Source of the DNA: a virus
Taxonomy: Duplodnaviria > Heunggongvirae > Uroviricota > Caudoviricetes
IMG/VR virus record: IMGVR_UViG_2778261154_000008
Strand: one strand, 5' to 3'
DNA length: 25,084 nucleotides
Positions 3,493-24,915 of the stretch are shown here, piece after piece (positions within the stretch are counted from its first letter, which is position 1; every line of letters begins with the position of its first letter). Both the position numbers and the translations under genes were made by a program. Under the pieces are notes generated by a model that searched no databases, was not told where the DNA came from, and saw only the letters and a program-made list of their open reading frames with translations.

Positions 3493-4553
3493 GTGGCCAC
3501 CGCCTTTGTTTTTTTCGTCTTCGCTTTCATTTCCGGCATGTCCAGTGATTCAGGCGGAACCAGCGCCAGAACCGTCATCCTCCCCTGTGCGCCATCCGTC
3601 CATGTCACCCCGGATATCAGCCAGGTGGTTTTCAGGTTCTGAATGCTGTCGTCGATATCGACAAGGCGGTTGGTCTGCCACAGCGGGCCGCTGTCGCCCT
3701 GTTCGCGCCAGCCTGCCACCGTGATTTCCGTCGTGCGGGACTCTCCCAGCATCCGGGCTTTGTACCATTCCCCGCGAATGCTGGCCCCGCCCACGGTCAG
3801 GCTGTCTTCATTGACCAGAATGCGCGGGCGGTAACGGTTAATTTCCGGGTCTTCGGTGATGTACTGGCGACCGCCCACCATCGGGGCAGGCTGGCTGTCC
3901 CACAGTTTGCCACCGGCACTGGTGGTGCCCTTGATGATGTACTGGCTGTTACGCTCCCGCCAGCTGAAGCGCCCACGGGCGGCGAGGATATTTTTTCCCA
4001 GCACCAGTGACACGCCCGCGCGAACGGAAGAGGCGCGGGTGATAATCAGGTTACCCGCGCCGTCAGACGTCAGCAGAACGCCGCGCTGTTTTGCCAGCCG
4101 GTCGAGCAGTTCAAAGCCCGTTTCACCCTGTTCCAGAACGACAGACGCAAATGCCTCCCCGGTCGGGGTTTCCGTGATGACGGTTATCCCGAACGGGCGG
4201 CAGACATCAGCCGCCACCTGTTCAAGCCGCACGCCTTTCCATTTCCCGGACGAATGCACCACAGAGCAGTCCACCAGGTCGCCGGTTTTATCGCGCCCCA
4301 TGACGCGAATCTCCACGTTTTCAGCGTCATAGCCGGGGATAAAATCATCGATATACCCCGTCAGCACGGTATCCGCGCCCAGCCTGACCGTGCAGGGTTG
4401 CCCCTCACGAATCACGCGCGGTGCCGCCGCTGACCAGCGGGTTGTCACACTGAGTTCAAACTCACCGGCAATCGCCTTCAGGGAACGGCTGACGGACATT
4501 TCCGTCCAGCCTTCCCACAGTTTGCCGTCAACGGTAAGAATCACGGATTCCAT
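3483..4553 (-). CDS. Tail protein, Mu P (gp44) / P2 gpD-like
   Basis: 356-aa ORF whose start overlaps the stop of the DNA circulation gene; synteny with Mu N-P-Q-V-W-R-S. Confidence 0.7.
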   Translation of the reverse strand: MESVILTVDGKLWEGWTEMSVSRSLKAIAGEFELSVTTRWSAAAPRVIREGQPCTVRLGADTVLTGYIDDFIPGYDAENVEIRVMGRDKTGDLVDCSVVHSSGKWKGVRLEQVAADVCRPFGITVITETPTGEAFASVVLEQGETGFELLDRLAKQRGVLLTSDGAGNLIITRASSVRAGVSLVLGKNILAARGRFSWRERNSQYIIKGTTSAGGKLWDSQPAPMVGGRQYITEDPEINRYRPRILVNEDSLTVGGASIRGEWYKARMLGESRTTEITVAGWREQGDSGPLWQTNRLVDIDDSIQNLKTTWLISGVTWTDGAQGRMTVLALVPPESLDMPEMKAKTKKTKAVATWD

Positions 4554-7620: not shown

Positions 7621-7816
7621 GCTGTTTCTCCAGTTGCTTTATCAGGCGGAACAGCTGCCGCAGGGGCAGCTGTTCCAGGTACTGAATGCTGAATCGCGAA
7701 GACAGGTTAACCAGCAGGTTCATCAGTGCCGACGCCAGCGGCATCAGTTCGCCCCCGCGTTGCCACCTCCTCAAGCATGTCATCCAGCACAGCCGCTTTC
7801 GTGCTGATAAGCTCAA
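7607..7816 (-). CDS. Probable frameshift extension of the tail assembly chaperone (G/GT-like arrangement)
   Basis: Frame open from 7816 to 7607, overlapping the chaperone 3' end by 110 nt and the tape measure start by 14 nt. The listed start is TTG with no convincing RBS. This frame is +1 (equivalently -2) relative to the chaperone frame. Confidence 0.4.
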   Translation of the reverse strand: MSLSARKRLCWMTCLRRWQRGGELMPLASALMNLLVNLSSRFSIQYLEQLPLRQLFRLIKQLEKQHGNR

Positions 7817-8469: not shown

Positions 8470-9945
8470 TTAAAGCTTGAACTGAATCAGGCCTGCCAGC
8501 ACACGCAGCTGGTTCACCAGATTCGGGTGGCAGATAAAGTTCAGGCGGTTTTTATCACTGCTGTCACGTGTCACCTGAAGCGTGTCTTTGTAATCGCTGA
8601 AGTTCTCCACAAGGCCCGCCGGGAGAAGTTCGGTCTGGCAGATATCCAGCAGTTCTGCGGTGCACAGCTTCGGCGTCATCACCGGCTGCCCCGCATCCAG
8701 CGAGTCCAGCACGTCATCATCCGCCAGCTTGTGGCGCGGATAACGGTTCGTGAAACGGTTCTTGATGATGTAACGGATACGGCCCAGCGTGGCGGGTGAC
8801 TGCACATCCAGGTACGACACATCCGCATCACCGTACTGGTTAACCCGGTACATGGTGATTTCGCGCTCGATGCAGACGTTATCCCCGGCGTCCACCATGT
8901 GCGTGGCAATGCCGTCATGCAGCAGCAGATTACGCTCCGGCATATCCCAGCGAACATTACGCGCAGGCGGCAGAATGCCGGTCAGGACCAGCGTCTGAAG
9001 CGGTCGCGCCGGGTCAATGGCAAGGTGATACGCTGCCGTTGCGCCGTATGACGCGGCCCACATCCACGCCGGGTGCGGTGACAGGTTGGTGCCGATACAG
9101 CTAATCAGCCAGTCATTGCGGGTTTCACCAAACGTGCCGGTTTCCCCGTGTGTGCCACGAAACGCCGTCCACAGCTGCGCTTCCATCATTTTGAGCGGCC
9201 CCCAGCGGTTCAGCAGTTCATCACGCAGGGTGTTCAGGCTTTTCGTGTCGGTGAACGGGGCGATGATATCGGTAAACCACTCCGGGCCGATGGCCGCAAC
9301 GGCGTCTGCCATTTCCGGTGTCCCGGTGCCGCCGGTAAACGCGGTTGCGGTCACCTTCACACCTGCCGGGAAGGCTTCACCGGTGTGGTAGTTCAGGCGA
9401 ACGTCGGCACCGTTGCCGGTGACGCCGTGCCAGTTCACGGTCAGCTCCACGGTATCCGTGGCATCATCCTTCACCGCAGCGGCCACCTGCGTGGCAGGCT
9501 TTTTCGTCACCGCATCAGCAATGGCTTTTGCAATGTTTTCCTTCGTATCCCCGGCGCTCACGCTCACCTGAACGGACACACCGTTAATCAGCAGTGCCAC
9601 CGTTCCGGCTTCGGTCGCTGTACCCAGCACGGTCAGCGTGGCTTTTGCGGCAGCGCCTTCAGGAGCGGCAACCGGCATCGCCCAGGTTTCCGTGTACGTG
9701 TTGGCACGACGCAGCATTTTGAGCATTTCAGCCAGCATCGACCCTTTGCCATAAAGCTGGTCTGCCTGGCTGTCACTGGTGATGCGGGTCAGTGACAGGG
9801 CGTCTGCGCTGCCGGACGATACCGCATGGCCCATGACCAGAATTTTTCGGCTTTGCGCGGATGCACCCTCCAGCGCCTGTGAATTGTCGATATCGATCCA
9901 GACAAGCGGGACGCGGATATCATCAGGAATGGAACCCAGCGACAT
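8470..9945 (-). CDS. Contractile tail sheath protein (Mu L-like)
   Basis: 491-aa ORF with the size and composition of a sheath protein, followed by the tube gene. Confidence 0.85.
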   Translation of the reverse strand: MSLGSIPDDIRVPLVWIDIDNSQALEGASAQSRKILVMGHAVSSGSADALSLTRITSDSQADQLYGKGSMLAEMLKMLRRANTYTETWAMPVAAPEGAAAKATLTVLGTATEAGTVALLINGVSVQVSVSAGDTKENIAKAIADAVTKKPATQVAAAVKDDATDTVELTVNWHGVTGNGADVRLNYHTGEAFPAGVKVTATAFTGGTGTPEMADAVAAIGPEWFTDIIAPFTDTKSLNTLRDELLNRWGPLKMMEAQLWTAFRGTHGETGTFGETRNDWLISCIGTNLSPHPAWMWAASYGATAAYHLAIDPARPLQTLVLTGILPPARNVRWDMPERNLLLHDGIATHMVDAGDNVCIEREITMYRVNQYGDADVSYLDVQSPATLGRIRYIIKNRFTNRYPRHKLADDDVLDSLDAGQPVMTPKLCTAELLDICQTELLPAGLVENFSDYKDTLQVTRDSSDKNRLNFICHPNLVNQLRVLAGLIQFKL

Positions 9946-10722: not shown

Positions 10723-11264
10723 GGCAGAACCTCCTTCCAGAAATGACTGATAACCTGTTGCAGCTCCTGCTGGCTGGCAGAAGACAGCCCCAGAAATTCA
10801 CGTTGCGGAATGTTCATCATGCGGTGATGTGCACCGACGGTCTGCCAGACCGGATATTTCAGCGCCCGCCCGAAACACTGCGAGATAAGCCGTTTGTGGG
10901 CGCTGACCGGCACGCTGCCGGAAAAGCCGTCATTCATGATGCGGGCATAATCCAGCGGTGAACCGATACGCACCACGCGGTTTTCCACGATGTACTGGAT
11001 ACTCTCCAGCAGATGGCCTTCACCGCGCAGCAGACTCTGGTTGCCGTGGCGGGTCTTTTTGTACCCGTCAGACCAGTCCGGCCAGCGTTCGCCACCCGGA
11101 CTGGTTTTCTCATCGATGATGCGGCGGCGGGTCTGTGATTCCACCACCGCACCGATGCTTTCCAGCAGCTCTGACTGCAATGAACCCTCTGCCAGCTTTT
11201 CAACGGCGCGGCGGATATCCTCCAGACGCTGGTCACCGCTGACCTGTACAGAAATCCCCATCAC
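10719..11264 (-). CDS. Phage virion morphogenesis protein (P2 gpS-like tail completion)
   Basis: 181-aa ORF with ATGA start/stop overlap to the upstream gene; position between head and tail modules. Confidence 0.55.
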   Translation of the reverse strand: MMGISVQVSGDQRLEDIRRAVEKLAEGSLQSELLESIGAVVESQTRRRIIDEKTSPGGERWPDWSDGYKKTRHGNQSLLRGEGHLLESIQYIVENRVVRIGSPLDYARIMNDGFSGSVPVSAHKRLISQCFGRALKYPVWQTVGAHHRMMNIPQREFLGLSSASQQELQQVISHFWKEVLP

Positions 11265-11698: not shown

Positions 11699-12009
11699 CA
11701 GCCTTTCTCCGCTTCCCGGACAATCAGATTCGGCTCTGCCATCAGGCGGGTGGCAACCGCAGCGCTCACCGCCACATCCTCACCGATATGTGACCAGAAA
11801 CGGCCACAGCGCCAGAACCCGTTTTCAGACACGGCCCTGACGTTCAGCCGGACAGGGGCGTCACCCTGTACAGCAACCGGGTCTTCAGCCGGACGTGGTT
11901 CATTCGCCTGACCGTCAGCCACAATAACGTCTGCCAGCGGTGCCGGGTTTTCCTGTGCAGCGCTGTTCTTTGCGGCTTTCGCGCCTTTGGTTTCTGCTTT
12001 TTCACTCAT
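11698..12009 (-). CDS. Hypothetical head-associated protein (first gene after the major head gene)
   Basis: 103-aa ORF with an Ala/Pro/Glu-rich N-terminal half; ATG at 12009 preceded by a palindrome-rich leader. Confidence 0.45.
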   Translation of the reverse strand: MSEKAETKGAKAAKNSAAQENPAPLADVIVADGQANEPRPAEDPVAVQGDAPVRLNVRAVSENGFWRCGRFWSHIGEDVAVSAAVATRLMAEPNLIVREAEKG

Positions 12010-12013
12010 GACT

Positions 12014-12063
12014 CTGCCTTTTAAAAGGCAGTTAAAAGGGCATTCACAGCACCTTTTAACTGC
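12014..12063 (-). promoter_or_regulatory. Nested palindromes between the major head gene and the next gene (attenuator or RBS-sequestering structure)
   Basis: 18-bp perfect palindrome ctgccttttaaaaggcag (12014-12031) overlaps a 12-bp perfect inverted repeat gcagttaaaagg-N12-ccttttaactgc (12028-12063); the downstream gene's RBS/ATG (12007-12009) abuts the first palindrome. Confidence 0.45.
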
Positions 12064-12080
12064 GGTTTACGGATGACGGG

Positions 12081-12986
12081 TTATGCCGGGGTGGTGATGT
12101 ACGGGCTGTCCACGATCTTCACATCCTTGTACCAGATGTTGGAATCGCCGCCGTTAACCAGCATGGCGTCAATAATGAGCTTCGCGTCCGCACGGTTTTT
12201 CGGCCCCACCACAAGGGTGGTCGGGCGGATGCCCAGCGGCTCACCGTTGGTGCCCTTCATGCCCCGCAGCAACTCATTGGCTTTTTTGTAGTTCTCCACC
12301 GTCAGTGCTGCATGGGAACCGACGGCGGTCTGCCAGAAGCCGAAGCCCGCATTACAGCGACCGTCCACGCCGTACAGGAACTCGTGGTTCTTGAAGGTGT
12401 GCTCGCTGTTCAGATCGTCCAGGGCTTCAAACTTAAAGGCGCGTCGCGTCTGCCAGATGATGGGTTTCAGCACCTGCGACTCATCAATCAGGAACCACGG
12501 TTCGCCCTTGTCTGATGCCGGGGTGCCGACAACGTTGCTGTACGTACCGTCACCCAGCGGGTGGTCTTCATCAAAGAAGTTCTGGCCGTCAAAGCACAGG
12601 GTGTTAAAACCGGCACACAACAGGGCGTAACACAGCTTGTCCGGGAACACAGCAGTCATACGGCCATAGCGTTCGGCGGTAATGCTGTACTGACCAATCT
12701 GGTCATCTTCAATGTGTTCACGCTTAACGCGAATGGAACTTTCCCAGAGTTTGTTGGTGATGGTGTAACCATAACCGTCCAGCGTTGCCAGCTGACGCTC
12801 ACCGACCCATTCTTTGATGTCCGGTAAATCTTTCATCCAGCCGTAAGTGTTGGAGGCGGACGAACTCGGCACCTCAGAAGCAATACGATTCCACTGCGGT
12901 TCGACACCACTCAGTCCACGGGTAAAGGCGGCGCTCAGGCAGGTGGTCAGTGCATGAAGGATTTCAGAACTGATAGTCTGTGACAT
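12081..12986 (-). CDS. Major head subunit (Mu T / gp34-like)
   Basis: 301-aa ORF directly downstream of the protease/scaffold gene, followed by a strong stem-loop, as is common after major capsid genes. Confidence 0.85.
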   Translation of the reverse strand: MSQTISSEILHALTTCLSAAFTRGLSGVEPQWNRIASEVPSSSASNTYGWMKDLPDIKEWVGERQLATLDGYGYTITNKLWESSIRVKREHIEDDQIGQYSITAERYGRMTAVFPDKLCYALLCAGFNTLCFDGQNFFDEDHPLGDGTYSNVVGTPASDKGEPWFLIDESQVLKPIIWQTRRAFKFEALDDLNSEHTFKNHEFLYGVDGRCNAGFGFWQTAVGSHAALTVENYKKANELLRGMKGTNGEPLGIRPTTLVVGPKNRADAKLIIDAMLVNGGDSNIWYKDVKIVDSPYITTPA

Positions 12987-12993
12987 GTGTTAC

Positions 12994-13950
12994 TTACTCC
13001 TGTTTCGGTTTAGCGGCGAGGAACTCTTCCCCGGTAATACCCATGCTGCGACACATCGCCAGTTCGGCATCGGTCAGTGTCTGCGCGGGTTTATCCTTGC
13101 CCTGGCTGGGCTTGTCGTTGTTAACCAGCGGCTGTGCACCTTTGGTGTACTCCGCAAACTGTTTGCGGCCTTCTTCCGTGCGGCAGGTGGCAAGGAACAT
13201 GTCACGGTTTGCCGGGGCGACTTTTCCGGCCCCGATGGCCGCATCCACAAGCGCCTCGGCTTCCTTCTCTTCCAGTTGCTGAAGGCGTTTTTCTGCGGTT
13301 TCGGCACGGTTCAGTGCCAGATTGTGGGTTTCCACCGGCACAAACTTCGTCAGGTCAGGTGTCTGTGCGCGGTTCAGCGCCACCTGTTCGTTCTCCTGAA
13401 GTTGTTTAATGGCGGCCACGGTATCGTCCACCGTGGCGGATTCAGCCAGCCCAAGCAGGCCGGTGATTTGCACAGGTACTGTCATCGGGTTTTTCTCCGT
13501 ATTCAGTGCAGGAAAATCCAGGTTAGGTTTGTTGGTCAGCCCGACGCTGGACAGGCGCGTCACCGCACCGTCTGCGTCATGGAAAAACGCCGGGCTGTAA
13601 TAGCGGTAGCGGCGCTCGCTCAGCATCCACCGGGCGGACTCACTCCAGACAACACGCCCTTCAATGGTGCCGCTGTCCGTCACCCGCAGTGCTTCCACCC
13701 AGCCATACGCCGGAGCCTCTTCACCCCGCGGGCCTTTAATTTCGGTGGCATGTTCAATGTCCACCGGAATGTTGATGTCGGACGAACGGGCAACCACCTC
13801 ATGTGGATTGCGGTTCATCCACGTCCGGCCATCGCGCCCGGTGAACTCACCCGCAGGAACGAGTTCAAGCCATTCCGGCAGTTGAGCGGGTGTCAGCTCA
13901 GGGATGGGTTCTGGCAGGGAAAAACACAGCGCCAGCAGTTCCGGTTGCAT
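12994..13950 (-). CDS. Head maturation protease / scaffold (Mu I / gp32-like)
   Basis: 318-aa ORF with a C-terminal helical Ala/Glu/Lys-rich scaffold-like region; first gene after the F-I intergenic gap. Confidence 0.8.
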   Translation of the reverse strand: MQPELLALCFSLPEPIPELTPAQLPEWLELVPAGEFTGRDGRTWMNRNPHEVVARSSDINIPVDIEHATEIKGPRGEEAPAYGWVEALRVTDSGTIEGRVVWSESARWMLSERRYRYYSPAFFHDADGAVTRLSSVGLTNKPNLDFPALNTEKNPMTVPVQITGLLGLAESATVDDTVAAIKQLQENEQVALNRAQTPDLTKFVPVETHNLALNRAETAEKRLQQLEEKEAEALVDAAIGAGKVAPANRDMFLATCRTEEGRKQFAEYTKGAQPLVNNDKPSQGKDKPAQTLTDAELAMCRSMGITGEEFLAAKPKQE

Positions 13951-13999
13951 GTCAGTCTCCGTCGTCTGGGGTTACCGACGGTCAGTATGCGGAAGGCAG

Positions 14000-14025
14000 A
14001 AAAAAAGCCGGATTTACCGGCTTCA
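14000..14025 (-). terminator. Exact second copy of the same 26-bp hairpin plus T-tract element, ~50 nt upstream of the protease/scaffold gene
   Basis: aaaaaaagccggatttaccggcttca is identical at 14000-14025 and 21712-21737; flanks differ. Position matches where Mu has its late promoter for gene I. Confidence 0.5.
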
Positions 14026-14043
14026 CTGAAAACGGGGAAATAC

Positions 14044-14066
14044 CCCCTTCAAAACCCCTTCAAAAA
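14044..14066. repeat. Tandem direct repeat CCCCTTCAAAA x2 (third, degenerate copy GCTTCAAAAAA at 14077-14087) in the F-I intergenic region
   Basis: Read directly from the sequence; minus-strand form TTTTGAAGGGG. The TGAAG core also occurs in both copies of the 26-bp element and in the endolysin-leader hairpin. Confidence 0.4.
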
Positions 14067-14113
14067 CGCCACAGACGCTTCAAAAAAGCCAGGGTGTACA
14101 TTCATGCCATCAG

Positions 14114-14140
14114 AATAAAAAACGCGTTTCTGATGCGTTT
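14114..14140 (-). terminator. Candidate intrinsic terminator just downstream of the head morphogenesis gene
   Basis: Minus-strand RNA AAACGC-AUCAGAAAC-GCGUUU-UUUAUU, starting ~25 nt after the stop at 14165; the stem is short and AU-rich, so the call is weak. Confidence 0.3.
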
Positions 14141-14164
14141 CAGGGGTATTTACGGCGGGGTGGG

Positions 14165-18740: not shown

Positions 18741-19040
18741 TTACGGTTCACGACGGCCCCCGTCTTCAGTTCCCGGTGTTTTCAGACCGGCGTATATTTC
18801 TTCACGAACGGACTGAATATCCTTACTTAACAGCTTCCACAGCCGCGCACATGCCGGTGATGACCGCAGGGCGCGTTTCATGGGGGTATCCGGTGCATCC
18901 GGGTTCCAGGGCTTTCCTGTATGTTTTTCGTATGCACGGACAATGGCGTTTTGCTCAATGTCTGCCAGCACAAGGCAGTACGCCAGCTGCCGCACGACGG
19001 CCCGTTCTCCACGACTTAACGGCTTCAGTTTTCGGGCCAT
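18741..19040 (-). CDS. Hypothetical small basic protein upstream of terminase (Mu gp26-like position)
   Basis: 99-aa ORF; part of a chain of tightly coupled small genes. Confidence 0.45.
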   Translation of the reverse strand: MARKLKPLSRGERAVVRQLAYCLVLADIEQNAIVRAYEKHTGKPWNPDAPDTPMKRALRSSPACARLWKLLSKDIQSVREEIYAGLKTPGTEDGGRREP

Positions 19041-19336: not shown

Positions 19337-19641
19337 TAATTTTTTTCCTTTAATTCGTTCTCTAATAACAAATCGCTGATGCGGGATACCTGGCGGATGG
19401 ATGGCCCCAGCTCTTTGATTTCACCCCGCAGGTTGCTGATATCCAGTTGCAGGCGGTGAAATTCATTGCGGTCGGGTAGCTGATTCACCAGGCCTTCCAT
19501 CACCGACACGCGGGAACGCAGCGAATCAAACTCTTCGCGTTTGACGTAAGTCTTCGCCAGAATCAGCTGAATCAGGTTTATTGCTGTCATCAACAGCGCC
19601 CATAAAACAGGCCAGTTGGCCCGGATCACTTCCCAGGACAC
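19336..19641 (-). CDS. Membrane-anchored coiled-coil protein (Mu gp25-like position; possible lysis/spanin-like role)
   Basis: 101-aa ORF with an N-terminal hydrophobic segment (WPVLWALLMTAINLIQLILA) followed by a heptad-like region. Confidence 0.45.
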   Translation of the reverse strand: MSWEVIRANWPVLWALLMTAINLIQLILAKTYVKREEFDSLRSRVSVMEGLVNQLPDRNEFHRLQLDISNLRGEIKELGPSIRQVSRISDLLLENELKEKN

Positions 19642-19853
19642 GTCTTCCTCCTGTGTTCCCGCGCCTGCTGGCAGTCAATACAGGTCACCACATCCGGCAG
19701 CACCGCAAGGCGCTGTGCCGGAATAACGTTCCCGCAGTCATTGCAGAAGCCCCGACTGTGGGGTGCTTCTTTTATCCGCATCAGCCAGGCGTTAACGACG
19801 TCCTGACGTTCGTTTAAAACCACTTCACTGATGCGGTCGGTTTCATCGGTCAT
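19626..19853 (-). CDS. TraR/DksA-family C4 zinc-finger protein
   Basis: 75-aa ORF with CxxC...CxxC (FCNDCGNVIP...VTCIDCQQ), typical of phage TraR-like proteins; ATGA coupling to the upstream gene. Confidence 0.65.
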   Translation of the reverse strand: MTDETDRISEVVLNERQDVVNAWLMRIKEAPHSRGFCNDCGNVIPAQRLAVLPDVVTCIDCQQAREHRRKTCPGK

Positions 19854-20458
19854 TTCGGCCCCGCTGATATTTTGTGACAGCTCGATTTGCTGTAACGGGC
19901 AAAGCCGTCAAGGGTTCTTACCCCGAGATAGCCCAGCGCCGGGGTAAACAACATCAGCGTGATATCCCAGTCCGGTGACGGCATATGCAGCGTGATACCG
20001 TTCGCACCGGCAACCGCACCGGCAATCTGGCCACAGGAGAGCAACAGCACATAGGCCAGACTGCTGTAACAGGACAGACGGGCCAGCAACGGGCGCGTCT
20101 GGCGCACATAGCTGTCCGTGGCGTTGTCACCGTTGCGGATGGTTTCCTGTTGTTCGTGGTGAGCGGCCTGCTGGTCAGCCAGCACCAGCTTCTGCCGCTC
20201 CACCTCCAGCTGTTGCAGCTGGACTTTCAGGGTTTCCAGCTGCACCAGTTGCTCCGGTGACAGCATCACCAGTTTTTGTTCCAGAATGCGTTGCTGTTCA
20301 GCCACCGGCAGGCTTTCCCGGACGCTTTCCACCATACCGGCCACCGAGTCAGCGGCGGCAGATGTGCTGCCACCAAACCAGCGCCCGACGGAACGAATCA
20401 GCCCCGGCCCGGCTTTCAGCAGAACGGAGGCGATGCCTGAAAGGGTTAACGGGTCCAT
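19850..20458 (-). CDS. Lysis-associated membrane protein (holin or lysis-regulator candidate)
   Basis: 202-aa ORF: amphipathic N-terminus, central coiled coil (LETLKVQLQQLEVERQKL), C-terminal hydrophobic segments; AAGGGGGA RBS upstream of the ATG. Confidence 0.45.
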   Translation of the reverse strand: MDPLTLSGIASVLLKAGPGLIRSVGRWFGGSTSAAADSVAGMVESVRESLPVAEQQRILEQKLVMLSPEQLVQLETLKVQLQQLEVERQKLVLADQQAAHHEQQETIRNGDNATDSYVRQTRPLLARLSCYSSLAYVLLLSCGQIAGAVAGANGITLHMPSPDWDITLMLFTPALGYLGVRTLDGFARYSKSSCHKISAGPK

Positions 20459-20856
20459 GAATCCCCCTTATGAAAACGGCGCTGATGTTTATAAAGTGCC
20501 GCACAAAAGATACCGCCCAGCCAGAACGCCAGCTGATAAGGCTCCTTCAGATAAAGAAGGCCGAATGTCAGCATGAAAAAACCAACGGCCCAGACCACCC
20601 ATGACCACACGACAATTCGAAGGGAGGCGGCCCGGAAACGCCTTTTGGGTTGCAGGCGATAAGGTACGTTGCCCAGCTGGAAACTGTGAATCAGGCAGAG
20701 TGTCGCGCCGTATGCCAGCACCATGACCGCAAACGCCTGCCATCCGGCAAAACAGCTCGCCAGAAAAAGGACTGCCGACAGCCCCAGAAACGACCACTGG
20801 CACAACATAAAGCGGGAGTAAATAACGCGAACAAAAAGACTATTCATTCTGTGCAT
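20446..20856 (-). CDS. Polytopic membrane protein, ~4 predicted TM segments (holin or superinfection-exclusion candidate)
   Basis: Start taken at the internal ATG 20856 (MHRMNSLF...) with AAGGA upstream; four hydrophobic stretches by eye. The longer listed form (to 21027) would overlap the adjacent 75-aa ORF. Confidence 0.45.
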   Translation of the reverse strand: MHRMNSLFVRVIYSRFMLCQWSFLGLSAVLFLASCFAGWQAFAVMVLAYGATLCLIHSFQLGNVPYRLQPKRRFRAASLRIVVWSWVVWAVGFFMLTFGLLYLKEPYQLAFWLGGIFCAALYKHQRRFHKGDSWTR

Positions 20857-21067
20857 TGAGTTTTTCCTTGTACTTCTGGCACTGCCAGAAAATGTCCCGT
20901 GTATCCACGGTGTTCCAGCCACGCATGTAGTGGCTGGCGTGTGTGCCGTCATGACCGGTATAGTCCAGCGGTTTCGGGGGCGGACCTCCGGCCATACGAT
21001 GTAAAACCTCCTGACGCAGGCGGTCACGCCGCCCGGCTCTCAGCGAGGCATCCCAGCCTTTGCCCAT
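20840..21067 (-). CDS. Hypothetical 75-aa protein downstream of the endolysin gene
   Basis: Start 2 nt after the endolysin stop with GGGGA upstream; hydrophilic, no TM segment; no family recognised. Confidence 0.3.
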   Translation of the reverse strand: MGKGWDASLRAGRRDRLRQEVLHRMAGGPPPKPLDYTGHDGTHASHYMRGWNTVDTRDIFWQCQKYKEKLNAQNE

Positions 21068-21068
21068 A

Positions 21069-21656
21069 TCATCCCCGCGTGACGGACGACACGTTGTCGA
21101 TAATTTCCAGACAGGCGTCGGTCACTTTCTCCATGCGGTTAAACCAGCCGTTCAGGTATTTGCCCTGGGCAGGTTTGGATTTGATGATGTCGGCATAAAA
21201 GCGGGAACGACGGACAATGCAGCGGGTCAGCAACCAGTCCGGGGTGGACAGGCTCACTGCCTTACGGGTACGCGGACCGATGATGCCGTCAGCATCCACA
21301 TCAGCGGCTTCCTGCAAAATCCTGATAGCTTTTTTAACGCCATGCTGAACCGCCGCATCGAACACAAACATCGCCACGCCATCAGGCCACTGGTCACATC
21401 CGGCAGGCAGCCAGTAATCGCGCCAGTAAATCTGCGCGACCTGTTCGCGGGTTAAATCCCTGATGCGGGTATCCGGTTTACCGTCGCCGCTGACATCGGT
21501 TTTGCCGTCAATCACACCGTCGCGGCGGTCAGAAATGCCGTATCTGGTTTCGCCGCCACGGTCAGTGGGGTCATTGACATAGACGCCTTCGATATCGGGA
21601 CGCAGAATAAAATTCAGCGCATACTCAAAGGCCGGGGAGAATTTTTGATTTTCCAT
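21069..21656 (-). CDS. Endolysin, GH108-type muramidase with C-terminal peptidoglycan-binding domain
   Basis: 195-aa ORF; N-terminal FEYALNF...EGVYVNDPTDRGGETRYGIS matches the GH108 signature as I recall it; C-terminal DGIIGPRTRKAV resembles a PG-binding domain. No N-terminal hydrophobic/SAR segment. AGGTG RBS. Confidence 0.8.
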   Translation of the reverse strand: MENQKFSPAFEYALNFILRPDIEGVYVNDPTDRGGETRYGISDRRDGVIDGKTDVSGDGKPDTRIRDLTREQVAQIYWRDYWLPAGCDQWPDGVAMFVFDAAVQHGVKKAIRILQEAADVDADGIIGPRTRKAVSLSTPDWLLTRCIVRRSRFYADIIKSKPAQGKYLNGWFNRMEKVTDACLEIIDNVSSVTRG

Positions 21657-21667
21657 AAAAGCACCTG

Positions 21668-21696
21668 TGAAGCAGATTTAAACGTGGTCTGCTTCA
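21668..21696 (-). promoter_or_regulatory. 9-bp perfect inverted repeat in the endolysin leader, immediately upstream of its RBS
   Basis: tgaagcaga-N11-tctgcttca; on the mRNA the hairpin ends 12 nt before the ATG, next to AGGUG. Shares the TGAAGC motif with the 26-bp element. Confidence 0.4.
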
Positions 21697-21711
21697 TGGT
21701 GCCGGAGGCAT

Positions 21712-21737
21712 AAAAAAAGCCGGATTTACCGGCTTCA
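21712..21737 (-). terminator. Hairpin plus T-tract between the Mor/C gene and the lysis operon: intrinsic terminator and/or late-promoter activator site (copy 2 of a 26-bp repeat)
   Basis: Minus-strand RNA reads UGAAGCCGG-UAAAU-CCGGCUU-UUUUUUA: 7-bp GC-rich stem, 5-nt loop, U7. Begins 4 nt after the Mor/C stop and lies ~55 nt upstream of the endolysin ATG. Confidence 0.55.
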
Positions 21738-21741
21738 TTGA

Positions 21742-22191
21742 TTAAGGACGTCGTGGCGGACGACGAACGGGGTGAGGCAGGTTCGGGGAGTGGTAAAACA
21801 AATCCGGCTGGTATTTATTACACTCCAGACGCCGCATCCGCTTGATGGCCTTGTAGACGGTTTTATACGTCACCCCGTAACGCTGAACCAGTTCAGGAAT
21901 ATTATGGCCGTTAAAATCACGCCAGATACGCATATCCCGGACAAGATTCTCCAGAATATTCCCCCTCGGAACATAAACCTGCATCCCGCCGATATAGCGA
22001 CAAATCGCCACAACCAGCTCAAGGGAATGGGCAGGGTCTGCGCCAATCCGGGCCAGCTCTTTACGCAGCAGTGCGTTCAGTTCAGAAAGTAACGCCGGAT
22101 AAGCCGTGTTTTCCTGGTAATCGTTAAGGTATTCCAGAACGCTGTCGTCCCGGAAGTCTTCGAATAAATCCTGCTCTTTCATCTGTTTCAT
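21742..22191 (-). CDS. Mor/C-family transcriptional activator of middle/late genes
   Basis: 149-aa ORF; the segment DPAHSLELVVAICRYIGGMQVYVPRG...YGVTYKTVYKAIKRMRR closely resembles the Mu Mor/C family as I recall it; ATGA overlap with gemA; sits directly upstream of the lysis operon. Confidence 0.75.
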   Translation of the reverse strand: MKQMKEQDLFEDFRDDSVLEYLNDYQENTAYPALLSELNALLRKELARIGADPAHSLELVVAICRYIGGMQVYVPRGNILENLVRDMRIWRDFNGHNIPELVQRYGVTYKTVYKAIKRMRRLECNKYQPDLFYHSPNLPHPVRRPPRRP

Positions 22192-24612: not shown

Positions 24613-24915
24613 ATGAGCAGAAAAACCCAACGTTACTCTAAAGAGTTCAAAGCCGAAGCTGTCAGAACGGTTCTTGAAAATCAACTTTCGATCAGTGAAG
24701 GCGCTTCCCGATTATCCCTTCCTGAAGGCACTTTAGGACAATGGGTTACCGCCGCCAGAAAAGGGCTCGGTACTCCTGGTTCCCGCACGGTGGCTGAACT
24801 GGAATCTGAAATTCTGCAACTGCGTAAGGCGTTAAATGAAGCTCGCCTTGAGCGAGATATATTAAAAAAAGCAACAGCGTATTTTGCACAGGAGTCGCTG
24901 AAAAATACGCGTTAA
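24613..24915 (+). CDS. IS3-family transposase OrfA (HTH / leucine-zipper subunit)
   Basis: 100-aa ORF MSRKTQRYSKEFKAEAVRTVLENQLSISEGASRLSLPEGTLGQWV... with a helix-turn-helix and a C-terminal heptad region typical of IS3 OrfA. Confidence 0.9.
   Translation: MSRKTQRYSKEFKAEAVRTVLENQLSISEGASRLSLPEGTLGQWVTAARKGLGTPGSRTVAELESEILQLRKALNEARLERDILKKATAYFAQESLKNTR
24864..24871 (+). promoter_or_regulatory. Candidate -1 programmed frameshift site of the IS (A7-G slippery run)
   Basis: AAAAAAAG sits in the orfA/orfB overlap (orfA codons TTA AAA AAA GCA); IS3-family elements classically shift on A6G-type motifs. Confidence 0.55.

What the first reader, a model, noticed from the sequence alone, without database searches (positions are those of the whole stretch)
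21657..21741. Two tandem dyads sharing a TGAAGC motif in the lysis leader
Between the activator gene and the endolysin gene the minus strand reads ...TGAAGCCGG-taaat-CCGGCTT-TTTTT...TGAAGCAGA-ccacgtttaaa-TCTGCTTCA-cAGGTGcttttATG. The second dyad (9-bp perfect stem) ends 12 nt before the endolysin ATG, next to the RBS. TGAAG also recurs in the direct repeats upstream of gene I (14044-14087). This recurrent motif is a candidate half-site for the late activator, or the second hairpin is an RNA structure controlling endolysin translation or mRNA stability.
Basis: seen in the sequence. Interest (0 to 1): 0.45.

Follow-up and report, generated by a model that had tools for sequence, protein, structure and literature searches.

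The report
Terminator, promoter and RBS-hiding hairpin cassette
The two dyads are probably one control cassette of a Mu-like prophage: the first is the activator (Mor) site fused to a terminator, and the second appears to hide the endolysin ribosome-binding site only in RNAs that leak through from upstream, much as phage T4 does for its lysozyme gene.

Summary
Both dyads are real: a 7-8 bp stem plus T7, and a perfect 9-bp stem with an 11-nt loop, 12 nt before the ATG. They do not share a function through TGAAGC.

**Dyad 1** is the orthologue of the phage Mu middle promoter Pm. It combines the 16-bp Mor-binding site (AATGAAGCCGGTAAAT, 13/16 identical to Mu) with an intrinsic terminator. The upstream gene is a Mor orthologue (61% identity to Mu Mor, 32% to Mu C). 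The same 22-nt box recurs upstream of gene I.

**The promoter lies between the dyads.** The -10 (CACCAT, 21701-21696) sits in the register mapped in Mu. The predicted start (~21688) is the last base of dyad 2's left arm.

**Dyad 2** is the top of a two-tier RNA stem whose base pairs GGCACC (over the -10) with the Shine-Dalgarno GGUGCU. Among 87 related leaders (21 hairpin types) the arm sequences change but pairing is kept.

| RNA | Cost of opening the start region (kcal/mol) |
|---|---|
| Read-through | ~14-15 |
| Promoter-initiated | ~7 |
| Shuffled controls | ~8 |

Most likely this blocks translation of read-through transcripts, as at T4 gene e. I found no description of it for Mu-like phages. 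No start site or translation data exist for this phage.

The parts
21742..22191 (-). mor orthologue. It is the only Mor/C-family activator gene seen between gam and the terminase gene.
   Evidence: Pfam Mor PF08765, E = 4e-30. 61% identity to Mu Mor and 32% to Mu C. Its DNA matches Mu, D108 and SfMu gemA-mor. RefSeq annotation of the identical E. coli locus agrees.
21724..21739 (-). Predicted Mor-binding site AATGA-AGCCGG-TAAAT. The layout is a 5-6-5 element whose centre lies 43.5 bp upstream of the predicted start.
   Evidence: 13 of 16 positions match the Mu Pm site AGTAAAGCCGGTTAAT at -51..-36. The Mu numbering is fixed by primer JM1 in PMC4390567. A second copy with one mismatch lies at 14012-14027, against 0.24 matches expected by chance.
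21712..21736 (-). Dyad 1: an intrinsic-terminator hairpin GAAGCCGG/CCGGCUUU plus a U7 tract. It would end the upstream (early, mor) transcript and overlaps the Mor site.
   Evidence: Terminator scan and RNA fold. The homologous Mu hairpin is annotated as a terminator inside the middle-promoter feature of AF083977.
21696..21701 (-). -10 hexamer CACCAT of the Mor-dependent promoter. No -35 element is present.
   Evidence: It occupies the same register as the Mu Pm -10, TATCCT. All 87 related leaders have a hexamer there, and A at position 2 and T at position 6 are invariant across 13 different hexamers.
21688..21688 (-). Predicted transcription start: the 8th nt after the hexamer, as in Mu Pm.
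   Evidence: Inferred by register from Mu +1, which is L002 position 4037. It has not been mapped in this phage.
21698..21703 (-). 5' strand of the lower stem, GGCACC. It overlaps the -10 hexamer.
   Evidence: MFE and centroid structures of the read-through RNA. The GCAC/GUGC pairs are present in 34 of 35 aligned leaders.
21688..21696 (-). Dyad 2 left arm UGAAGCAGA, the 5' strand of the upper stem. It occupies promoter positions -8 to +1.
21668..21676 (-). Dyad 2 right arm UCUGCUUCA, the 3' strand of the upper stem.
   Evidence: In the related leaders, 8 of the 9 upper-stem pairs show changes on both sides.
21660..21666 (-). Shine-Dalgarno AGGUG, lying within the 3' strand of the lower stem (GGUGCU).
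   Evidence: The cost of opening positions -14..+5 is 15.0-15.1 kcal/mol in read-through RNA, 6.4 in promoter-initiated RNA and 7.5-8.0 in shuffles.
21069..21656 (-). GH108 endolysin gene with a PG_binding_3 domain. It is the first gene of the Mor-dependent operon.
   Evidence: Pfam PF05838, E = 2e-23, and PF09374. RefSeq places the CDS start at the same ATG.
13959..14027 (-). Second copy of the cassette, upstream of gene I. It comprises the Mor box and terminator (14027-14000), the -10 CATACT (13989-13984), a predicted start near 13976, and the dyad CCGTCG-N11-CGACGG (13981-13959). The gene I ATG is at 13950.
   Evidence: In this lineage the start-region opening cost does not differ between read-through and promoter-initiated RNA, 8.2-8.8 against 8.8 kcal/mol.

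Best explanation
The 85-bp spacer between mor and the endolysin gene is a compact cassette with three jobs.

**1. Dyad 1 with its T-tract.** As RNA it is the intrinsic terminator of the upstream (early, mor) transcript. As DNA, its left arm and loop form the binding site for the Mor dimer, centred at -43.5.

**2. The promoter.** Mor recruits sigma-70 RNA polymerase to a promoter that has a -10 hexamer (CACCAT, 21701-21696) but no -35 element. Transcription would start near 21688.

**3. Dyad 2.** It is the upper part of a two-tier RNA stem-loop.
- The 5' strand (GGCACC plus UGAAGCAGA) lies over the -10 hexamer and the spacer between the -10 and the start.
- The 3' strand (UCUGCUUCA plus GGUGCU) ends in the Shine-Dalgarno sequence.
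- RNA that leaks through the terminator from upstream contains both strands. It folds and hides the ribosome-binding site, so endolysin is not made.
- RNA started by Mor lacks the 5' strand and is translated.

**Consequence.** Lysis-gene expression would depend on Mor twice, once for transcription and once for translation.

**Shown here:**
- sequence homology to Mu Pm;
- the fixed promoter register;
- conservation of the structure by covariation;
- a computed difference in accessibility of the start region.

**Inferred:**
- the start site in this phage;
- that read-through RNA exists;
- the effect on translation.

A likely secondary effect, also inferred, is Rho-dependent polarity on the untranslated read-through RNA.
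For: **Homology to Mu Pm**
- The upstream gene is a Mor orthologue.
- The dyad 1 region is nearly identical to Mu Pm: AATGAAGCCGGTAAATCCGGCTTTTTTTATGCC against AGTAAAGCCGGTTAATCCGGCTTTTTTTACGTC.
- In Mu this element is the Mor site at -51..-36, centred at -43.5 (PMC4390567 and PMC4287176). It also carries an annotated terminator.
- The 22-nt box occurs twice in the window, before the lysis operon and before gene I, where none is expected by chance.

**Promoter register**
- 87 distinct leaders downstream of the box were collected from IMG/VR. The same box also follows mor in Pluralibacter, Raoultella, Klebsiella, Serratia, Kluyvera and Brenneria genomes.
- All 87 have a hexamer with invariant A2 and T6 in the Mu register.

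**Conserved structure**
- A hairpin follows the hexamer immediately in every leader. There are 21 sequence types.
- Native left and right halves fold at -19.5 kcal/mol on average, against -11.6 for chimeras between types.
- On the covariance-model alignment, 8 of 9 upper-stem pairs change on both sides.
- 89% of cells are paired, against 36-44% when partners are slid.
- The covariation score is 0.30 against 0.13 for shuffles, with 0 of 500 shuffles as high.

**Accessibility of the start region (opening cost)**
- Window: 15.0 kcal/mol for read-through RNA, 6.4 for promoter-initiated RNA, 8.0 for shuffles (0/100).
- 20 of 21 types behave alike, Wilcoxon p = 2e-6.
- The result does not depend on the exact start position, because the lower 5' strand overlaps the -10 hexamer.
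- The Mor-start leader is essentially unstructured: -5.7 kcal/mol, z = -0.45.

**Mu itself**
- In Mu, where +1 is mapped, the left arm of a 10-bp stem that covers the gp18 AUG ends exactly at -1. Opening costs are 13.4, 5.5 and 8.5 kcal/mol.
- Mu PI behaves the same way: 14.5, 2.8 and 6.5 kcal/mol, 0 of 200 shuffles as high.
- Mu Pm -62..+10 and Plys -60..+8 are the fragments used for promoter assays. Neither contains the right arm, so the dyad is not needed for activation.

**Precedent**
- T4 genes e, soc, 49 and I-TevI use the same design (PMC3014915).
Against: - No start site, read-through measurement or translation assay exists for this phage or its close relatives. The start is transferred from Mu by register.
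- The -10 hexamer CACCAT matches the consensus at only 3 of 6 positions.
- The upstream terminator looks strong, so read-through RNA may be scarce.
- The lower stem that actually covers the Shine-Dalgarno sequence (GCAC/GUGC) is nearly invariant. Its pairing is therefore supported by conservation and energy, not by covariation.
- The second copy of the cassette, at gene I, shows no difference between read-through and promoter-initiated RNA in this lineage.
- Mu Plys is not better than shuffles, and Pmom does not fit. The principle is therefore not universal.
- All comparison sequences were collected by an exact match to the Mor box, so they form one clade.
- The covariance-model alignment is fitted to the structure.
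Confidence: 0.68

Rival explanations
1. Dyad 2, and the shared TGAAGC motif, is a DNA operator. In this reading a dimeric protein binds it over the -10 and start region to regulate the lysis promoter. The protein could be the activator itself, a repressor or a host factor.
For: - The dyad spans about -8 to +21 of the predicted promoter, a classical operator position.
- It is a perfect 9-bp inverted repeat.
- ATGAAGC is shared with dyad 1.
Against: - Relatives with an identical Mor box have unrelated arm sequences at this position. Symmetry is preserved by compensatory change, which is the signature of an RNA stem.
- Arm length and loop length vary widely, 3 to 12 nt in the representative folds. 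The TGAAGC spacing differs between the two dyads.
- The Mu promoter fragments used for activity assays lack the right arm.
Confidence: 0.06
2. The hairpin is present in the Mor-dependent mRNA itself because the true start lies upstream of it. It would then act as a 5' stabiliser or as a constitutive translational block. A trans-acting factor would open the block, as Com does for Mu mom.
For: - The start site is unmapped in this phage.
- The hairpin is very stable, and Mu uses a Com-opened hairpin at mom.
- At Mu Pmom the leader hairpin does begin at +1.
Against: - The 5' strand of the lower stem overlaps the only plausible -10 hexamer. That hexamer is fixed in register with the Mor box and has invariant A2 and T6.
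- RNA polymerase cannot start upstream of its own -10.
- No other sigma-70-like promoter is found in the spacer.
- In Mu the mapped +1 lies just 3' of the left arm.
Confidence: 0.1
3. The structure acts on read-through RNA in another way. It could be an RNase III or other processing site, a 3'-end stabiliser, or, in the window lineage where UUUU follows the stem, a second back-up terminator.
For: - The two-tier stems reach 15-19 bp in several types.
- In the window the full stem is followed by UUUUAU.
Against: - The U-run is not conserved. Most types have CAAAUG, CAGGCAUG or similar after the stem.
- Many stems are shorter than typical RNase III substrates.
- The one constant feature is that the 3' strand ends in the Shine-Dalgarno sequence or the start codon.
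- This reading is compatible with a translational block and could coexist with it.
Confidence: 0.12
4. Both dyads are chance palindromes with no function.
For: Short inverted repeats are common. The window holds about nine loci with perfect 9-bp repeats.
Against: - Only 0.6% of shuffled spacers have such a repeat.
- Fold z-score is -5.3.
- Dyad 1 is conserved to the nucleotide across genera.
- Dyad 2 is conserved as a structure across 21 sequence types.
Confidence: 0.01

Closest known systems
Phage Mu middle promoter Pm, comprising the Mor-binding site and the overlapping early terminator
   Same: - A Mor orthologue is encoded immediately upstream.
- The 16-bp site has the same 5-6-5 layout and the same AGCCGG spacer.
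- The hairpin and T7 tract match.
- The -10 hexamer is at the same distance and there is no -35 element.
- The cassette starts the same few bases after the mor stop codon.
   Different: - In Mu the promoter drives gp18-20 and the second activator C. Here it drives a GH108 endolysin and the lysis and head genes directly.
- No C gene is present.
- The same box is re-used before gene I, where Mu uses a C-dependent promoter.
- The half-site bases differ at 3 of 16 positions.
- The -10 hexamer is CACCAT rather than TATCCT.
Phage T4 gene e (lysozyme), and also soc, 49 and I-TevI: a late promoter placed inside a hairpin that sequesters the ribosome-binding site
   Same: - Transcripts that start upstream fold so that the Shine-Dalgarno sequence or AUG is paired.
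- The stage-specific promoter lies in the DNA that encodes the 5' strand, so its own transcripts lack that strand and are translated.
- The protected gene is a lysis enzyme.
- Related phages keep the structure (PMC3014915).
   Different: - The phage family is unrelated.
- The promoter is sigma-70 plus a Mor activator, rather than gp55 with the TATAAATA late promoter.
- Here the cassette also includes an intrinsic terminator just upstream.
- The T4 effect, reported as a 100-fold reduction in lysozyme synthesis, is experimental. The effect here is computed only.
IS10/Tn10 'fold-back inhibition' of transposase translation in transcripts that enter from outside. This comparison rests on my own recollection of Davis, Simons and Kleckner, 1985; the paper was not retrieved here.
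   Same: Read-through transcripts contain a 5' segment that pairs with the translation start region. Transcripts from the element's own promoter start inside the pairing region and escape.
   Different: That case concerns an insertion sequence and protection from host promoters. Here it concerns stage timing within a transposable phage. Protection of a randomly inserted prophage from host read-through is conceivable but untested.
The Mu mom leader hairpin, which is opened by Com
   Same: Both belong to the Mu family, and in both a stem-loop occludes a translation start region.
   Different: At mom the hairpin lies within the promoter's own transcript and needs a protein to open it. Here the promoter's position removes the 5' strand, so no trans-acting factor is required.

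Membership tests
Mu Pm-type Mor-dependent promoter | A Mor-family activator is encoded by the phage. | tested here: met
   Pfam Mor, E = 4e-30. 61% identity to Mu Mor.
Mu Pm-type Mor-dependent promoter | A 16-bp imperfect dyad (5 bp, G/C-rich 6 bp, 5 bp) is centred 43.5 bp upstream of the start. | tested here: met
   AATGA-AGCCGG-TAAAT at 21739-21724 matches the Mu site at 13 of 16 positions. The distance to the start is inferred.
Mu Pm-type Mor-dependent promoter | A recognisable -10 hexamer is present in fixed register, with no -35 hexamer. | tested here: met
   CACCAT lies in the Mu register. A2 and T6 are invariant across 87 leaders. The best -35 candidate, TCCGGC, matches 1 of 6 positions (sequence).
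Mu Pm-type Mor-dependent promoter | Mor binding and Mor-dependent transcription are demonstrated. | not testable with these tools
   This needs a gel-shift or footprint assay and a reporter assay.
Intrinsic (Rho-independent) terminator | A G+C-rich stem-loop is followed directly by a U-tract. | tested here: met
   8-pair stem with 5 G-C pairs, loop of 5, and U7. Termination efficiency was not measured.
T4 gene e-type control (promoter inside a hairpin that sequesters the start region) | The Shine-Dalgarno sequence or AUG is paired in transcripts that start upstream. | tested here: met
   In both MFE and centroid structures GGCACC pairs with GGUGCU, and UCC pairs with the GGA that overlaps the AUG. 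Opening cost is 15 against 6.4 kcal/mol.
T4 gene e-type control (promoter inside a hairpin that sequesters the start region) | The stage-specific promoter is placed so that its transcripts lack the 5' strand. | tested here: met
   The 5' strand of the lower stem overlaps the -10 hexamer, and the upper arm spans -8..+1. The result holds for any start 4-10 nt after the hexamer. The start site itself is inferred from Mu.
T4 gene e-type control (promoter inside a hairpin that sequesters the start region) | The structure is maintained in relatives. | tested here: met
   21 sequence types; chimera test and pair counts.
T4 gene e-type control (promoter inside a hairpin that sequesters the start region) | Long and short transcripts are shown to be translated differently. 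| not testable with these tools
   This needs reporter fusions or toeprinting.
   The dyad 2 arms differ completely among relatives that carry the same Mor box.
   Centre-to-centre spacing is 14 bp in dyad 1 and 22 bp in dyad 2. Loops range from 3 to 12 nt in the representative folds of relatives.
Any curated Rfam family | The match reaches the family's gathering score. | tested here: not met
   The only match is a sub-threshold hit to sroD, 23 bits against a gathering score of 50, lying over the terminator.

The most novel reading that the evidence does not exclude
Mu-family phages of Enterobacterales carry a portable regulatory cassette with four parts in order: an intrinsic terminator, the Mor site, a promoter without a -35 element, and an anti-RBS stem.

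The cassette would make the first late or lysis gene depend on the activator at both transcription and translation. The same logic appears to operate at Mu Pm and Mu PI, and I found no description of it in decades of Mu work, within the limits of the held literature.

It may also shield a randomly inserted transposable prophage from host read-through, in the way insertion sequences protect their transposase genes.
Probability: 0.5. Interest if true: 0.65.

Novelty: new member of a known kind. Interest (0 to 1): 0.55.

Why it matters
**Timing of lysis.** If the model is right, it explains how phages that place lysis genes directly behind the early operon avoid premature lysis. A single activator would then give a sharp switch.

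**A testable prediction for Mu.** The first middle gene, and gene I, should be translationally silent on read-through RNA. This can be checked in the best-studied transposable phage.

**Convergence.** The same design would have arisen independently in two unrelated phage families, T4 and Mu. That suggests placing a promoter inside an anti-RBS hairpin is a general solution to leaky terminators.

**Practical uses.**
- The cassette is a compact natural insulator part.
- The box together with the invariant A2/T6 hexamer allows late promoters to be annotated in Mu-like prophages.

Tried and rejected
- **MAFFT plus RNAalifold on 20 representative leaders.** This found nothing because the variable loops misalign the right arms. 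I replaced it with a covariance-model alignment and an alignment-free chimera test.
- **TGAAGC as a regulatory word.** It is enriched in the window, but mostly outside the two leaders and not conserved in dyad 2 of relatives. Rejected.
- **A third Mor-like site at 19014-19029.** It has 3 mismatches and lies just inside the 18741-19040 ORF, with no hairpin or T-run. Rejected as chance.
- **TTTAAAT in the dyad 2 loop as the -10.** It would sit 20 bp too far from the Mor site, has no -35 element, and the loop is not conserved. Rejected.
- **Extension to all Mu late promoters.** Plys has a 7-bp arm pair (GCCATCA/TGATGGC) in the expected place, but its start region is no less accessible than in shuffles. 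Pmom does not fit.
- **The gene I copy in the window lineage.** It shows no difference in start-region accessibility.
- **Classic Mu papers.** Artsimovitch and Howe 1996, Stoddard and Howe 1990, and Margolin et al. 1989 are not held. I could not check whether they mention these hairpins. Full-text searches of the held literature found no such description.
- **Rfam.** No family matched.
Full report
**Where the window comes from and what flanks the finding**

The window is a Mu-like prophage of Escherichia coli, read on the minus strand.
- It is 100% identical over the tested stretch to strain FDAARGOS_943.
- Related copies occur in 50 of 5426 complete E. coli genomes.

The gene upstream of the finding (21742-22191) belongs to the Mor family (Pfam, E = 4e-30).
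- Its DNA aligns with gemA-mor of Mu, D108 and SfMu, not with C.
- Its protein is 61% identical to Mu Mor and 32% identical to Mu C.

The gene downstream (21069-21656) is a GH108 endolysin with a peptidoglycan-binding domain. No second Mor/C-family gene lies between mor and the lysis and terminase genes. This phage therefore seems to run on one activator.

**The observation**

- Dyad 2 has 9-nt arms that are 100% complementary, separated by 11 nt. It ends 12 nt before the ATG.
- Dyad 1 with its T-run is called as a terminator-like site.
- The spacer RNA folds at -35.4 kcal/mol, z = -5.3.
- A perfect inverted repeat of 9 bp or more appears in 0.6% of shuffled spacers.
- The heptamer ATGAAGC is shared by the two dyads.

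**Dyad 1 is the Mu Pm element**

Mu reads ACAGTAAAGCCGGTTAATCCGGCTTTTTTTACGTCC just after mor. The window reads TCAATGAAGCCGGTAAATCCGGCTTTTTTTATGCC.

What is known in Mu:
- A Mor dimer binds a 16-bp element made of two 5-bp inverted repeats around a G/C-rich hexanucleotide.
- The element spans -51 to -36 and is centred at -43.5 (PMC4390567, PMC4287176).
- Primer JM1 in PMC4390567 fixes -51 as the A of AGTAA. The site is therefore AGTAA-AGCCGG-TTAAT, and +1 is position 4037 of locus L002.
- The AF083977 record also annotates a terminator inside this promoter. I recall this as the early terminator t9.2, but I could not retrieve the source.

What this implies for the window:
- The window site AATGA-AGCCGG-TAAAT (21739-21724) matches at 13 of 16 positions.
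- The symmetry Mor uses is offset from the hairpin symmetry. It covers the left arm and the loop of the hairpin.
- Hence one piece of DNA is both an RNA terminator and an activator site.

The 22-nt box AAGCCGGTAAATCCGGCTTTTT occurs a second time at 14023-14002, directly upstream of gene I. None is expected by chance.

**The promoter lies between the dyads**

In Mu the -10 hexamer TATCCT begins 10 nt after the T-tract, and +1 is the 8th nt after it. An exact-pattern scan of IMG/VR for the box returned 120 stretches, which yielded 87 distinct leaders.
- Every leader has a hexamer in that register.
- The hexamers seen are TATCCT, TATTCT, CACCAT, CACTAT, CACAAT, CACACT, CACCCT, CAAAAT, CAAACT, CATGAT, CATACT, TAAATT and AATAAT.
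- A at position 2 and T at position 6 are invariant. These are the two bases most important in sigma-70 -10 elements.

In the window the hexamer is CACCAT (21701-21696). No -35 element is present. The predicted start is A21688, which is the last base of dyad 2's left arm.

**Dyad 2 is a conserved RNA structure**

Sequence immediately after the hexamer is hypervariable among these phages, yet it always forms a hairpin. Examples of arm pairs:
- GGAAGC / GCUUUCC
- GGGAUUUGUCA / UGACUCAAUCCC
- GAGAAGG / CCUUCUU
- GAGGAAAGUG / CACUUUCCUU
- GGUGGAA / UUCCAUC

I distinguished 21 sequence types.

*Chimera test.* This test needs no alignment.
- Joining the left half of one type to the right half of another raises the mean MFE from -19.5 to -11.6 kcal/mol.
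- For 18 of 21 types, at most 1 of 20 chimeras is as stable as the native sequence.

*Pair counts.* A covariance model seeded on nine window-type variants aligned 38 leaders. Results on that alignment:

| Measure | Observed | Control |
|---|---|---|
| Upper-stem pairs changed on both sides | 8 of 9 | - |
| Upper-helix cells paired | 95% | - |
| All cells paired | 89% | 36-44% with partners slid |
| Covariation score | 0.301 | 0.127 shuffled (0 of 500 as high) |

The alignment is fitted to the model, so these counts lean towards the structure. The chimera test does not share this bias.

**What the structure covers**

In the window's read-through RNA the upper stem (dyad 2) sits on a lower stem.
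- GGCACC (21703-21698), which overlaps the -10 hexamer, pairs with GGUGCU (21665-21660), which contains the Shine-Dalgarno AGGUG.
- A further UCC/GGA pairing reaches the G of the AUG.
- In other types the base of the stem is AUGCCUG/CAGGCAU, which includes the start codon.
- The GCAC/GUGC pairs are nearly invariant, present in 34 of 35 leaders. They neither prove nor disprove pairing by covariation.

I computed the ensemble cost of unpairing positions -14..+5 around the start codon:

| Leader | Read-through RNA | RNA from predicted start | 5' part shuffled |
|---|---|---|---|
| Window | 15.0 | 6.4 | 8.0 (0 of 100 as high) |
| Mean of 56 distinct cores | 13.9 | 7.3 | 8.0 |

All values are in kcal/mol.
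- 20 of 21 types show a difference of at least 4 kcal/mol and are reached by at most 5 of 100 shuffles. Wilcoxon p = 2e-6.
- The result is unchanged for any start 4-10 nt after the hexamer, because much of the sequestering strand lies within or upstream of the -10.
- The Mor-start leader alone is unstructured: -5.7 kcal/mol, z = -0.45.

**Mechanism proposed**

- Early transcripts mostly stop at dyad 1.
- Those that leak through contain both strands of the two-tier stem and cannot load ribosomes on the endolysin start. This step is inferred.
- When Mor accumulates, it binds the box and starts transcripts at about 21688. These lack the 5' strand and are translated.
- Untranslated read-through RNA would also be exposed to Rho. 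This too is inferred.

**Support from Mu itself**

With the mapped Mu +1:

| Mu promoter | Pairing | Read-through | Promoter-initiated | Shuffled |
|---|---|---|---|---|
| Pm | CCUGUGAUGA (-10..-1) with UCAUCAUGGG over the gp18 AUG | 13.4 | 5.5 | 8.5 (8 of 200) |
| PI | - | 14.5 | 2.8 | 6.5 (0 of 200) |
| Plys | GCCAUCA at -6..+1 with UGAUGGC over the lys AUG | 12.7 | 6.1 | 12.8 |

Values are in kcal/mol.
- Plys has the arm pair in the expected place but is not distinguishable from shuffles.
- Pmom does not fit.
- The Plys numbering is inferred from the aligned -53..+14 features and the -43.5 centre of the C site.
- Published promoter fragments, Pm -62..+10 and Plys -60..+8, lack the right arms. 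The dyads are therefore not needed for activation.

**Limits**

- The gene I copy of the cassette in the window has a dyad in the same place: CCGTCG-N11-CGACGG, centred about +7 like dyad 2. It shows no accessibility difference, 8.2-8.8 against 8.8 kcal/mol.
- A related gene I lineage (L044) does show a difference, 15.5 against 3.9 kcal/mol.
- All leaders were gathered through an exact Mor-box match. They therefore represent one clade of Enterobacterales phages. Hosts seen include Pluralibacter, Raoultella, Klebsiella, Serratia, Kluyvera and Brenneria.
- Nothing here measures start sites, read-through or translation.

**Comparison with what is known**

- Dyad 1 is an orthologue of a well-studied element, Mu Pm.
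- The dyad 2 logic is that of T4 genes e, soc, 49 and I-TevI. There, early read-through RNA hides the ribosome-binding site, and late promoters lie in the DNA for the 5' strand (PMC3014915).
- It also resembles IS10 fold-back inhibition. This comparison rests on my own recollection.
- I found no description of such a structure for Mu or Mu-like phages in the held full-text library.
- No Rfam family matched.
- The classic Mu transcript papers could not be read.

**Verdict**

- The shared-motif, half-site reading is not supported.
- The reading of dyad 2 as an RNA structure controlling endolysin translation is supported in a sharper form: it would be specific to read-through RNA.
- I rate the finding a new member of a known kind, with moderate to good interest. 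The comparative signal is strong and the experiments are simple.

Noticed in passing
window 14047-14087 (-); compare L044, L073 and L121 upstream of their gene I boxes: Three phased repeats TTTTGAAG lie 20-70 bp upstream of the gene I Mor box, with TGAAG at 14082-78, 14062-58 and 14051-47 (spacing 20 and 11 bp). In two other lineages all three copies read TTAAAC or TTGAAC at the same positions, while the Mor box stays GTGAAGCCGG. This concerted change suggests a separate binding-site array or phased T-tract curvature, not Mor half-sites.
   Followed up: partly
window 21745 (-); loci L003 and L085: Other E. coli prophages match the window only from position 21745 onward. They have a different gene upstream, and in L003 an extra ORF lies between mor and the box. 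The cassette of box, hairpin and GH108 gene therefore behaves as a mosaic module, with a recombination junction at the upstream edge of the Mor box.
   Followed up: partly
window 19626-22191 (-): The prophage has a single Mor/C-family activator and no C gene. A GH108 endolysin, small ORFs, a possible holin and a TraR/DksA zinc-finger gene follow mor directly. This implies a two-stage rather than a three-stage cascade.
   Followed up: partly
L001 (Yersinia phage vB_YpM_5) 4065-5993: The Yersinia pestis Muvirus phages carry what looks like a GH108-like gene as the first middle-operon gene. The identification rests on DNA similarity to the window's GH108 gene, since the record calls it a hypothetical protein. 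A 140-aa CDS in the position of C follows, and the annotated lysozyme RrrD lies further downstream. If so, there are two lysozyme-type genes under different promoters.
   Followed up: no
window 12028-12063 (-): A perfect 12-bp inverted repeat, GCAGTTAAAAGG-N12-CCTTTTAACTGC, lies in the gap after the 12081-12986 ORF. The next segment, CTTTTAAAAGGCAG, can pair alternatively with its right arm and overlaps the Shine-Dalgarno region of the next gene (ATG at 12009). It may be a terminator or a translational switch.
   Followed up: no
window 14112-14142 (-): A further terminator-like hairpin, AAACGC-N9-GCGUUUUUUAUU, lies between the upstream gene's stop codon and the gene I box. Gene I is therefore preceded by two terminators in tandem.
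   Followed up: no
window ~578-590: CCGGATTAACCGG on the minus strand, which reads CCGGTTAATCCGG on the plus strand, is the core of the Mor-box hairpin. Here it lacks the AAG/CTT flanks and the T-run. It may be a remnant or a coincidence.
   Followed up: no
window 7648-7676, 9770-9798, 11072-11105, 20214-20244, 4032-4061, 397-432, 24877-24910: The window holds about nine loci with perfect inverted repeats of 9 bp or more and loops of 3-20 nt. That is 17 raw counts including nested ones, against about 2 in shuffles. Some, judged by coordinates, fall inside ORFs.
   Followed up: no
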